From the human T2T-CHM13v2.0 reference genome, Homo sapiens, in assembly GCA_009914755.4 (NCBI GenBank), contig CP068257.2:23136001-23200000 (forward strand): a stretch of 64,000 nucleotides of DNA. The letters run 5' to 3'. How positions within the stretch are numbered: position 1 is the first letter of the stretch; each line of letters opens with the position of its first letter. A program made the translations under genes and the position numbers. Below, piece by piece: positions 61,094 through 62,115 of the stretch. The notes below the pieces were generated by a model that saw nothing but the letters and a program-made list of their open reading frames with translations, was not told where the DNA came from and did no database searches.

Positions 61094-62115
61094 TGTGTCC
61101 CGAATTGGTGGGTTCTTGGTCTCGGTGACTTCATGAATGAAGCCGCGGACCCTCGCAGTGTTAACAGTTCTTAAAGATGGTCAGGAGTTTGTTCCTTCAG
61201 ATGTTCAGATGTGTCCGGAGTTTTTTCCTTCCGTAGGTTTGTGGTCTCGCTGACTTCAAGAGTGAAGCCGCAGACCTTCGCGGTGAGTGTTACAGCTCTT
61301 AAAGGTGGCGCATCTGGAGTTGTCCGTTCCTTCTGGTGGGTTCATGGTCTCCCTGGCCACAGGAGTGAAGCTGCAGACCTTCGGGGTGAGTGTTACAGCT
61401 CATAAAGGGGGCATGGACCCAAAAAGTCAACAGCAGCAAGATTTATTGCAAACAGCAAAAGAAGAAAGCTACCACAGCATGGAAGGTGACCCGAGGGGAT
61501 TGTGCTGCTGCCTCGGTGGCCTGCTTTTATTCCCTTATATGGCCCCACCCGCATCCTGCTGATTGGTCTATTTTACAGAGAGCTGATCGGTCCATTTTGA
61601 CAGAGTGCTGATTAGTGCGTTTACAAACCTTTAGCTAGACACAGAGTGCCAACTGGTGCGTTTAGTAACCTTTAGCCAGACAGCAAAGTTCTCCAGGTTC
61701 CCACCCAACCCAGAAGCCCAGCCGGCTTCACCTCTCAATAGCGCTCGCCCAGGATTTTACTGCGGCACCTAGTCCAGGCACTCTGGCAGCCCAGAGGGAG
61801 CTCGTCCCCCAATCAAGCCCAGCAGGCTCCAGCCTGCCGCGCCGAGTGCAGGGCCCGCTGAGCCTGGGCCCACCCGGAACCCGCGCCGGCCTGCAAGCGC
61901 CTCGCGCAGCCATGGATCCTGCCCGCGCCTCTCCCCACACACCTCCCCGCCAGCAGAGGGAGCCGGCTCAGGCCTCGGCCAGCCCCAGAGAGGGGCCCCC
62001 ACAGCACAGCGACGGGTCGAAGGGCTCCTGGAACGCGGCCAGAGCGGACGCAGAGGCCAAGGAGGCGCCGAGAGCCCAGAGCGAGCAAGGGCTGCTAGCA
62101 CGTTTTCACCTCTCA
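61094..62115 (+). mobile_element. HERV9-type LTR12 solo LTR (1,022 bp), TG...CA termini, 4-bp TSD 'atag'
   Basis: Starts 'tgtgtcccgaattggtgggttcttggtctcggtgacttcatgaatgaagccgcggaccctcgcagtg...'. Three tandem ~100-bp U3 units each end in 'gtgagtgttacagctc(t/a)taaag'. Then 'ggcatggacccaaaaagtcaacagcagcaagatttattgcaaacagcaaaagaagaaagctaccacagcatggaaggtgacccgagg...cctgcttttattcccttatatggccccacccgcatcctgctgattggtctattttacagagagctgatcggtccattttgacagagtgctgattagtgcgtttacaaacctttagctagacacag', followed by a CpG-rich 3' segment (61740-62100). 'gatag' precedes the LTR (61089-61093) and 'atagg' follows it (62116-62120). The overlapping GC-rich ORFs 61728-62208 are not coding. Confidence 0.85.
61550..61660 (+). 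promoter_or_regulatory. Cluster of inverted CCAAT boxes (ATTGG / ctgattgg) in the LTR12 U3 region: candidate NF-Y sites of an LTR-borne promoter or enhancer
   Basis: 'ctgctgattggtctattttacagagagctgatcggtccattttgacagagtgctgattagtgcgtttacaaacctttagctagacacagagtgccaactggtgcgtttagtaacc'. The motif [gct]gatt[ag]g recurs, and a CpG-rich segment lies downstream (61740-62100). Confidence 0.4.

What the first reader, a model, noticed from the sequence alone, without database searches (positions are those of the whole stretch)
61094..62115. Solo HERV9 LTR12 with intact ends, a 4-bp TSD and a CCAAT-box array: candidate cryptic promoter
Seen in sequence: a 1,022-bp element begins TG and ends CA and is flanked by a direct 'atag' duplication. 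It has three ~100-bp U3 tandem units, a run of inverted CCAAT boxes (ctgattgg), then a CpG-dense 3' segment. This is the only CpG-rich stretch in the 64 kb. No internal ERV9 sequence follows, so it is a solo LTR. Established knowledge: LTR12 family LTRs carry NF-Y, Sp1 and GATA sites in U3. They act as germline, tissue-specific or drug-inducible promoters, and are prominent among the cryptic LTR promoters derepressed by HDAC or DNMT inhibitors. The number of U3 repeats varies between copies and affects activity. Inference: this copy could drive a chimeric or lncRNA transcript into the unique sequence downstream (62.1-63.3 kb), which contains a CCAAT/GC-poor but ORF-free stretch.
Basis: partly seen in the sequence, partly recalled or inferred. 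Interest (0 to 1): 0.55.

Follow-up and report, generated by a model that had tools for sequence, protein, structure and literature searches.

The report
Old reverse-strand solo ERV9 LTR (LTR12)

Summary
The 1,022-bp element at 61094-62115 is real. It has TG...CA ends and an ATAG/ATAG 4-bp duplication. Both ends match, to the base, the termini of dozens of independent ERV9 LTR (LTR12) copies recovered from contaminant human contigs. No ERV9 internal sequence occurs anywhere in the window, so it is a solo LTR.

- The three "~100-bp U3 units" (61108-61412) are the U5 "B" repeats.
- The "inverted" CCAAT boxes are sense boxes of the U3 "E" repeats.
- The CpG-dense "3' segment" (61738-62115) is the family's GC-rich 5' U3 extension.

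Any LTR-driven transcript would therefore start near 61500-61512 and run leftward, not into 62.1-63.3 kb.

The copy is old: about 9% non-CpG divergence in U5, and only 77-88% identity to its best relatives. It is not LTR12C-like. It keeps the proximal CCAAT, the Sp1 site and the AATAAAA box in native spacing. It has lost 3 of 4 CCAAT boxes (family median 5), the GATA motif and the GCCAnnnnTGGC start-site repeat.

It is a known kind of repeat and most likely silent. Expression and chromatin could not be tested here.

The parts
61090..61093 (.). Target-site duplication, left copy (ATAG; CTAT on the LTR's own strand)
   Evidence: Other solo copies in the family also show 4-bp TSDs: L022 CTTA, L025 ATGG, L052 CTAT, L074 GTAG, L118 TGAG.
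61094..62115 (-). Solo ERV9 LTR (LTR12 family, long form with a short 5' extension), 1,022 bp. Its 5' end is at 62115 and its 3' end at 61094.
   Evidence: blastn coverage is 1021/1022 against L101, and 124 contigs are hit. The 5' terminus TGAGAGGTGA and the 3' terminus ...CCAATTCGGGACACA coincide with the family termini. Hits are on the minus strand only. The sense of the LTR is fixed by provirus L120.
62116..62119 (.). Target-site duplication, right copy (ATAG)
61738..62115 (-). GC/CpG-rich 5' extension of U3 (LTR positions 1-378).
   Evidence: Homologous to the extension of long-form copies: L101 77% over positions 1-378, and L012 positions 1-297 match 62115-61819. Across 26 copies the extension has median GC 0.70 and CpG o/e 0.55. 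The review describes a 5' extension in LTR12C/D/E.
61727..61737 (-). Internal second copy of the LTR 5' terminus (TGAGAGGTGAA), where short-form LTR12 copies begin
   Evidence: Short-form LTRs with unrelated flanks or a PPT start exactly here. The L120 3' LTR, position 1, aligns to 61737. The same junction occurs in L071, L101 and L068.
61558..61682 (-). U3 'E' enhancer repeats: two 41-nt units and about two 24-nt units. The CCAAT boxes read CCAGT, CTAAT, CCGAT and CCAAT, so only the last is intact. The GATA motif is mutated (TCTGTGTCTAGCT).
   Evidence: TRF gives periods of 41 and 24. Motif scan. The 41-bp E elements are described in PMC11853044.
61562..61566 (-). The only intact CCAAT box, which is the conserved proximal '-1' NF-Y site
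   Evidence: It lies 35 nt from AATAAAA, as in 51 of 61 family copies. PMC5085097 reports site -1 in 91% of responsive LTR12s.
61542..61550 (-). Sp1-type GC box GGGTGGGGC, directly upstream of the TATA-like box
   Evidence: Present in 34 of 53 family copies. Described in the review.
61525..61531 (-). TATA-like AATAAAA box
   Evidence: Present in 49 of 53 family copies. Described in the review.
61501..61512 (-). Predicted U3/R border and start-site motif, decayed to GGCAGCAGCACA (family GCCAGCAGTGGC). Both arms of the GCCAnnnnTGGC repeat are damaged.
   Evidence: No match within 3 mismatches on the minus strand. In the family the motif starts 21 nt after the G of GAATAAAA, is exact in 24 of 53 copies, and is within 1 mismatch in 36 of 53.
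61442..61447 (-). R-region poly(A) signal AATAAA
61108..61412 (-). U5 'B' repeats, three ~77-nt units.
   Evidence: family D1. The 72-bp B elements in U5 are described in PMC11853044. The U5 consensus built from 57 copies shows the same repeats.

Best explanation
The element is a solo long terminal repeat of the primate endogenous retrovirus ERV9 (RepeatMasker family LTR12), lying on the minus strand.

Origin (inferred): an ERV9 provirus integrated here and made the 4-bp ATAG duplication. Recombination between its two LTRs then removed the internal genes.

Layout, read from 62115 down to 61094:
1. A 378-nt GC-rich U3 extension.
2. A second copy of the terminal TGAGAGGTGAA, where short-form LTRs begin.
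3. Four decayed E enhancer repeats.
4. The proximal CCAAT, the Sp1 box and the AATAAAA box.
5. A degraded start-site motif near 61501-61512.
6. A short R region with AATAAA.
7. A U5 region with three B repeats.

The copy belongs to an old lineage that is not LTR12C-like.

Function (inferred, not shown): it is most likely silent. If it were derepressed, its residual proximal promoter would start transcripts near 61500-61512. These would run leftward through U5 into the repeat-rich flank below 61094.
For: Family membership and boundaries:
- blastn covers 1021/1022 nt.
- The 5' end TGAGAGGTGA follows unrelated flanks or the proviral polypurine tract in dozens of copies.
- The 3' end ...CCAATTCCGGACACA is followed by unrelated flanks or the PBS region at 86 ends.
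- The ATAG TSD fits the 4-bp TSDs seen in five other solo copies.

Solo status:
- The ERV9 internal probe (L120 100-8498) has no hit in the window.
- Neither the PPT nor the PBS context is present at the window's junctions.

Orientation:
- L120 encodes MA, PR, RT, RNase H, IN and Env on the strand where the LTR reads TGAGAGG->GGACACA.
- The window matches that LTR on its minus strand.
- All motifs described in PMC11853044 lie on the minus strand in canonical order.

Age and subfamily:
- Identity to the best relatives is only 77-88%.
- U5 non-CpG divergence from the pooled consensus is 9.2%.
- The extension is 378 nt, against about 626 nt in LTR12C-like copies.

Promoter decay:
- 1 CCAAT against a family median of 5, and no GCCAnnnnTGGC.
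- The GATA motif is lost.
- The proximal CCAAT-Sp1-AATAAAA module keeps its native 35-nt spacing.
Against: - No expression, CAGE, ChIP or methylation data could be consulted, so 'silent' is an inference from motif decay and from literature on which subfamilies respond.
- The Dfam subfamily name could not be assigned, because no consensus library was available.
- The 124 comparison contigs were selected with an exact 28-mer from the B repeat. They are therefore biased towards younger, LTR12C-like copies, which may exaggerate how decayed this copy looks.
- The extension keeps more CpGs than equally diverged relatives. That could mean it has been unmethylated, and so possibly active, in the germline.
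- LTR-LTR recombination is the standard origin of a solo LTR, but it cannot be demonstrated for this particular copy.
Confidence: 0.9

Rival explanations
1. One reading: the LTR acts as a plus-strand cryptic promoter that drives a chimeric or lncRNA transcript rightward into 62.1-63.3 kb.
For: - The review notes that some LTR12 copies promote bidirectional transcription.
- The right-hand 378 nt meets CpG-island criteria, and CpG-rich DNA can initiate without a TATA box.
- One plus-strand CCAAT lies at 61809.
Against: - The LTR is on the minus strand.
- The plus strand carries no AATAAAA, no Sp1 box and no E-repeat CCAAT.
- LTR12C-driven transcription after DNMTi/HDACi treatment was primarily unidirectional, in the sense direction.
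- 62.1-63.3 kb lies upstream of U3.
Confidence: 0.04
2. The true insertion is a short-form LTR12 at 61094-61737, with ATAG TSDs at 61090-61093 and 61738-61741. The 378-bp CpG-rich block (61742-62119) was added later at this locus, creating the 15-bp duplication TTCACCTCTCAATAG.
For: - The 15-nt exact direct repeat includes the 4 nt that look like the TSD.
- Short-form LTR12 copies do begin exactly at the internal TGAGAGGTGAA.
Against: - Copies at unrelated loci (L101, L068, L071) have the same arrangement: extension, then ...gtgcCAT|TGAGAGGTGAA|gccggctggg. The composite therefore existed before this integration.
- The window's internal CTAT is one transition away from the family's CCAT.
- The outer end TGAGAGGTGAAAACGTGCTAGCAG matches the 5' ends of other long-form LTRs next to unrelated flanks.
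- About half of the ERV9 5' flanks end in NTAN, which makes a CTAT target site unsurprising.
- The block has no poly(A) tail or other mark of a secondary retroposition.
Confidence: 0.03
3. The LTR works as an orientation-independent enhancer, through the NF-Y/GATA-2/MZF1 complex described for the beta-globin ERV9 LTR, rather than as a promoter.
For: LTR12 enhancers are documented. One high-quality CCAATCAG and the Sp1 box survive.
Against: - Three of four E-repeat CCAATs are mutated, and the GATA motif is lost. No GATA or TATC occurs anywhere in the element.
- The E-repeat-associated GTGGGGA motif is mutated to GTGGGAA.
- Only about 4 repeat units are present, against the 5-17 reported for the family.
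- No gene was recognised anywhere near the element in the window.
Confidence: 0.06

Closest known systems
ERV9 solo LTRs (RepeatMasker/Dfam LTR12 family), as reviewed in PMC11853044
   Same: - U3-R-U5 layout.
- 41-nt E repeats carrying CCAAT, and ~72-77-nt B repeats in U5.
- Sp1 box, then AATAAAA, then the start-site region.
- A GC-rich 5' extension.
- TG...CA ends and a 4-bp TSD.
- Base-exact termini shared with many independent copies.
   Different: - Strongly decayed: 1 intact CCAAT, no GATA motif and no GCCAnnnnTGGC.
- Only about 4 E units, against the 5-17 reported.
LTR12C, the subfamily that supplies most DNMTi/HDACi-induced cryptic promoters (TINATs)
   Same: - Overall architecture.
- The first ~297 nt of the extension and the last ~600 nt are homologous (L012).
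   Different: - Only 77-82% identical.
- The extension is 378 nt, not about 626 nt.
- The junction reads CTAT|TGAGAGGTGAAGCC rather than GGATCCACT(G/A)|GGTGAAGCC.
- About 690 nt of the LTR12C-like sequence has no counterpart here.
- The core promoter is of the GGCCACC type rather than the GGCTGCC type.
Short-form ERV9 LTRs (about 575-740 bp, for example the 3' LTR of provirus L120; possibly LTR12F-like by length)
   Same: Window 61094-61737 is collinear with them from first base to last.
   Different: The window copy carries an extra 378-nt extension in front of that unit.

Membership tests
ERV9 LTR (LTR12 family) | Full-length sequence homology to independent LTR12 copies | tested here: met
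   1021/1022 nt are covered by L101. All three segments hit 32-124 contigs at 77-88% identity.
ERV9 LTR (LTR12 family) | Family termini: 5' TGAGAGGTGA... and 3' ...ACCCACCAATTCCGGACACA, next to non-homologous flanks | tested here: met
   The window has TGAGAGGTGAA... and ...ACCCACCAATTCGGGACACA. The break points are the same as in dozens of copies.
ERV9 LTR (LTR12 family) | 4-bp target-site duplication | tested here: met
   ATAG/ATAG. Five other solo copies have 4-bp TSDs.
ERV9 LTR (LTR12 family) | U3 tandem E repeats of about 41 bp carrying sense CCAAT, GATA and GTGGGGA motifs | tested here: met
   A 41-nt x2 array and a 24-nt x2.2 array are present. The motifs are mostly mutated: 1 of 4 CCAATs is intact and GATA is lost.
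ERV9 LTR (LTR12 family) | Sp1 box, then AATAAAA about 30 nt upstream of a GCCAGCAGTGGC start-site motif | tested here: inconclusive
   Sp1 and AATAAAA are present with native spacing. The start-site motif is degraded to GGCAGCAGCACA. Only 24 of 53 family copies keep it exactly.
ERV9 LTR (LTR12 family) | U5 tandem B repeats of about 72 bp | tested here: met
   Three ~77-nt units at 61108-61412. They are homologous to the U5 consensus.
ERV9 LTR (LTR12 family) | The same LTR type flanks an ERV9 provirus (gamma-like gag-pro-pol-env) | tested here: met
   In L120 the LTR end and PBS region lie at position 99, followed by MA/PR/RT/RNaseH/IN/TLV_coat, then the PPT and the 3' LTR at 8499. The window aligns to that LTR.
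Solo LTR | No adjacent proviral internal sequence: no PBS after U5 and no PPT before U3 | tested here: met
   The internal probe finds nothing in the 64 kb. The window junction flanks are unrelated to ttttggcgaccc... and ...tttagaggggggat.
LTR12C subfamily | A 5' extension of about 600-626 nt and close identity to LTR12C-type copies | tested here: not met
   The extension is 378 nt. Identity to LTR12C-like copies is 77% in the extension, with 19% non-CpG divergence from their consensus. The Dfam consensus itself was not available.
Drug-inducible LTR12 cryptic promoter (TINAT type) | Multiple conserved NF-Y sites (about 7 on average) plus an Sp1 box upstream of the TSS | tested here: not met
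   1 CCAAT in the 260 nt upstream (2 on the sense strand in the whole LTR) against a family median of 5. The benchmark comes from PMC5085097. The proximal -1 site and the Sp1 box are retained.
Drug-inducible LTR12 cryptic promoter (TINAT type) | An observed TSS or transcript arising in the LTR | not testable with these tools
   No genome mapping, CAGE, RNA-seq or ChIP resource was available.
CpG island (Gardiner-Garden criteria) | >200 bp, GC >0.5, CpG o/e >0.6 | tested here: met
   61701-62115: GC 0.70, o/e 0.64. This composition is inherited from the family extension, which has median GC 0.70 and o/e 0.55.

The most novel reading that the evidence does not exclude
The CpG-rich U3 extension of this old LTR12 copy may have been kept unmethylated in the germline. 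In that case it would behave as a small CpG-island-like regulatory element, perhaps a germline promoter or a bidirectional one, despite the decay of its CCAAT enhancer.

The hint is CpG retention. The extension retains 16 of 28 family-consensus CpGs and has 27 CpGs in its first 300 nt. Equally diverged relatives keep 9 of 28. The copy's own U5 shows ordinary CpG loss, with 9 of 19 kept.
Probability: 0.1. Interest if true: 0.3.

Novelty: already known. Interest (0 to 1): 0.08.

Why it matters
It matters little biologically. This is one of several thousand LTR12 copies in catarrhine genomes, from an old and decayed lineage, with no recognisable gene nearby in the window.

The practical value is the correction. 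For LTR-derived promoters the orientation decides which flank can be transcribed, and here it is the opposite of what was proposed. Any follow-up using CAGE, RNA-seq or reporter constructs should therefore look at the minus strand, to the left of 61094.

The analysis also shows that contaminant human contigs in public metagenome and 'bacterial' assemblies can serve as an improvised repeat library when Dfam is unavailable.

Tried and rejected
1. Empty-site test through the flanks. From memory, I thought the flanks were an old L1 ORF1 interrupted by the LTR. Pfam found nothing in the translated joined flanks. blastn found no paralog in the window or the 124 contigs. PDB sequences, which include L1 ORF1p, gave only chance hits with E >0.7. 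The flank identity therefore stays unverified, and nothing in the verdict depends on it.
2. A scan of viral contigs for LTR12 copies gave 0 hits.
3. Rfam gave no family hit in the 64 kb.
4. The first paper search failed on a term that was too short.
5. I considered a secondary insertion with a 15-bp TSD as the source of the CpG-rich block. I rejected it because unrelated loci carry the same composite junction.
6. I considered treating the CpG-rich block as a locus-specific CpG island. I rejected that as the default reading because the whole family carries the same composition.
7. Subfamily naming (LTR12, _, B, D, E or F) was not possible without the Dfam consensus sequences. I can only say that the copy is not LTR12C-like.
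8. TSDs of many comparison copies did not match. This is probably because short-read metagenome assemblies join different LTR copies, so only five clean TSDs were usable.

Full report
**Observation**

The element at 61094-62115 is 1,022 bp. It begins TGTG and ends CTCA, and ATAG lies immediately outside both ends.

- Three copies of a ~77-nt unit lie at 61108, 61233 and 61336.
- Tandem Repeats Finder reports a 24-nt x2.2 array and a 41-nt x2 array at 61558-61682.
- The right-hand part (61701-62115) has GC 0.70 and CpG o/e 0.64, against o/e 0.25 for the whole window.
- Only one exact CTGATTGG exists, at 61559. The other 'boxes' are mutated.
- An Alu at about 63.3-63.7 kb also meets CpG-island thresholds, so 'the only CpG-rich stretch' is not strictly true.
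- A 15-nt exact repeat, TTCACCTCTCAATAG, lies at 61727-61741 and again at 62105-62119. It spans the right terminus plus the presumed TSD.

**Reference material**

No repeat library was available, so I built one.

- A review of LTR12 (PMC11853044) gives the canonical anatomy:
  - U3 holds ~41-bp E repeats with sense CCAAT, a GATA motif (TCTGTATCTAGCT) and GTGGGGA.
  - LTR12C/D/E carry an optional ~600-nt 5' extension.
  - An Sp1 site lies just upstream of an AATAAAA box, which sits about 30 nt before a start site inside GCCAGCAGTGGC. The inverted repeat GCCAnnnnTGGC is needed for correct initiation.
  - R is short, and U5 holds 72-bp B repeats.
- A degenerate 28-mer from the B repeat pulled 4 contigs from 'bacterial' genome assemblies and 120 from metagenome assemblies. 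These are evidently primate contamination.
- They supplied dozens of independent LTR12 copies and one near-complete provirus, L120.

**Identity and boundaries**

- The window element is covered over 1021 of 1022 nt by L101, and all 124 contigs hit its U5.
- The motif TGAGAGGTGA(A/C) is preceded by unrelated flanks in many copies. In proviral 3' LTRs it is preceded by ...tttagaggggggat, the polypurine tract.
- The motif ...GAGACCAAGAACCCACCAATTCCGGACACA is followed by unrelated flanks at most of 86 ends. In proviral 5' LTRs it is followed by ttttggcgacccagatggg, the primer-binding region.
- The window's two ends coincide with these break points to the base, and neither proviral context is present.
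- An 8.4-kb ERV9 internal probe (L120 100-8498) has no hit anywhere in the 64 kb.
- Five other solo copies show clean 4-bp duplications, matching ATAG/ATAG here.
- The element is therefore a solo ERV9 LTR with correctly called outer ends.

**Orientation**

L120 encodes matrix, protease, reverse transcriptase, RNase H, integrase and a TLV-type envelope, in that order. They lie on the strand where the LTR reads TGAGAGG...->...GGACACA.

The window matches that LTR, and an LTR12C-like LTR (L012), only on its minus strand.

Independently, every oriented landmark from the review lies on the minus strand in the canonical order:
- E-repeat CCAAT derivatives at 61653-61562
- Sp1 box GGGTGGGGC at 61550-61542
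- AATAAAA at 61531-61525
- AATAAA at 61447-61442
- the B repeats

None of these occurs on the plus strand.
- The 'three U3 units' are U5 B repeats.
- The 'inverted CCAAT boxes' are sense boxes.
- The 'CpG-dense 3' segment' is the 5' U3 extension.

**The 15-nt internal repeat**

Short-form LTR12 copies begin exactly at the internal TGAGAGGTGAA. Window 61737 aligns to position 1 of the L120 3' LTR.

Long-form relatives at unrelated loci (L071, L101, L068) have the same junction...gtgcCAT|TGAGAGGTGAA|gccggctggg. The composite of extension plus complete short-form LTR therefore predates this insertion.

Eleven of the 15 nt are a family feature. The remaining four (CTAT) differ from the family's CCAT by one transition and happen to equal the TSD. 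About half of the ERV9 5' flanks in the sample end in NTAN, which makes a CTAT target unremarkable. I reject a locus-specific secondary insertion.

**Subfamily and age**

- The best relatives are only 77-82% identical in the extension, 80-85% in the U3 core and R, and 86-88% in U5.
- Non-CpG divergence from a pooled U5 consensus of 57 copies is 9.2%, with 9 of 19 consensus CpGs retained against a family median of 58%.
- At commonly used neutral rates (my own knowledge, about 2 x 10^-9 per site per year) this suggests tens of millions of years. It is an upper bound, because the consensus pools subfamilies.
- The copy is not LTR12C-like. Its extension is 378 nt rather than about 626 nt, its junction sequence differs, and about 690 nt of L012 has no counterpart here.
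- The Dfam subfamily name could not be assigned.

**CpG richness**

In 26 long-form copies the extension has median GC 0.70 and CpG o/e 0.55, with a range of 0.23-0.73. The composition is therefore inherited rather than a locus-specific island.

One oddity remains. Although the window extension is among the most diverged from the LTR12C-dominated consensus (19% at non-CpG sites), it keeps 16 of 28 consensus CpGs and has 27 CpGs in 300 nt. L101 and L068 each keep 9 of 28. With these numbers the difference is not significant. It could reflect a CpG-richer subfamily ancestor (L062 and L064 are also CpG-rich) or germline hypomethylation.

**Promoter competence**

Retained:
- The proximal CCAAT, 35 nt from AATAAAA, as in 51 of 61 copies. 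This is the '-1' NF-Y site found in 91% of HDACi-responsive LTR12s (PMC5085097).
- The Sp1 box and the AATAAAA box.

Lost:
- Three of four E-repeat CCAATs. The window has 1 CCAAT in the 260 nt upstream, against a family median of 5, and 51 of 53 copies have 3-7.
- The GATA motif.
- The start-site inverted repeat. GGCAGCAGCACA replaces GCCAGCAGTGGC, and both arms are damaged.

Literature benchmarks:
- Responsive LTR12s average about 7 NF-Y sites, and their activation depends on NF-Y.
- More than 80% of drug-induced cryptic TSSs come from LTR12, notably LTR12C. Promoter-type cCREs are confined to LTR12C/D/E (PMC12065363).
- LTR12C transcription is mainly unidirectional, although some copies are bidirectional.

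By inference this copy is a weak candidate. If active, it would initiate near 61500-61512 on the minus strand and read through U5 into sequence below 61094. That sequence is repeat-rich, with Alu copies at about 59.4-59.7 and 60.4-60.8 kb. I could recognise no gene there. The 62.1-63.3 kb stretch lies upstream of U3. It has no sizeable ORF and no match in the held data.

**Caveats**

- The comparison set is biased towards copies that keep an exact B-repeat 28-mer.
- Metagenome contigs may be chimeric across LTR copies.
- No expression or chromatin evidence could be examined.

**Verdict**

This is a correctly delimited but mis-oriented call of an ordinary, old solo LTR12. The kind is already known and the interest is low.

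Noticed in passing
window 61727-61741 and 62105-62119: A 15-nt exact direct repeat, TTCACCTCTCAATAG, covers the LTR 5' terminus plus the TSD and recurs inside the element. Eleven of the 15 nt are a family-level second copy of the terminus. 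The other four are a near-coincidence: family CCAT became CTAT, which equals the TSD.
   Followed up: yes
loci L071, L101, L068 compared with L012, L020 and others (junction between extension and short-form unit); window 61727-61745: Long-form LTR12 looks like a GC-rich block placed in front of a complete short-form LTR. The old lineage keeps an almost perfect duplicate of the terminal TGAGAGGTGAA at the junction. LTR12C-like copies have ggatccacTGGGTGAAGCC there. This suggests the extension arose by an event that duplicated the att end of U3.
   Followed up: partly
5' flanks of about 29 LTR12 copies in L008-L114; window 62116-62119: About half of the 4-nt sequences next to the LTR 5' end are NTAN (CTAT, ATAG, GTAG, ATAT, CTAC and others). 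This is far above chance and suggests a palindromic target-site preference of the ERV9 integrase.
   Followed up: partly
L001 (BMRF01000302.1), L002 (JANCAF010000101.1), L003 (CBDIHZ010000037.1), L004 (CAVXBB010000006.1, a 144,627-bp contig): Contigs in GTDB representative 'bacterial' assemblies carry primate LTR12, and L003 and L004 also carry Alu sequence. The assemblies are Actinomadura cremea, Actinacidiphila cocklensis, a Roseivirga MAG and an Acidobacteriaceae MAG. This is host or human contamination.
   Followed up: partly
window 61738-62115: The U3 extension keeps more CpGs (16 of 28 consensus CpGs; 27 per 300 nt) than equally diverged relatives (9 of 28), while the same copy's U5 shows ordinary CpG loss (9 of 19). 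This is a weak, non-significant hint of germline hypomethylation.
   Followed up: partly
window 63301-63700: An Alu element also passes CpG-island thresholds (GC 0.51, CpG o/e 0.80), so the LTR is not the only CpG-rich stretch in the window.
   Followed up: yes
window ~62680-63260: A GC-richer block contains an ATTTGCAT octamer-like motif and ends in an A-run (...tattattaaaaaaaaa). It has no match in the window or in the 124 contigs. It may be an old retroposed or LTR-like repeat, and it remains unclassified.
   Followed up: no
window ~60880-61093 and 62120-62300: From memory, the flanks of the LTR resemble an ancient L1 ORF1 region on the plus strand, interrupted by the LTR. Pfam, PDB sequence search and blastn could not confirm this.
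   Followed up: yes
L120 1-9289: This is a near-complete ERV9 provirus in a metagenome contig. It has long open frames for RT-RNaseH-IN (642 aa) and Env (483 aa), and its short-form 3' LTR lies at 8499-9240.
   Followed up: partly
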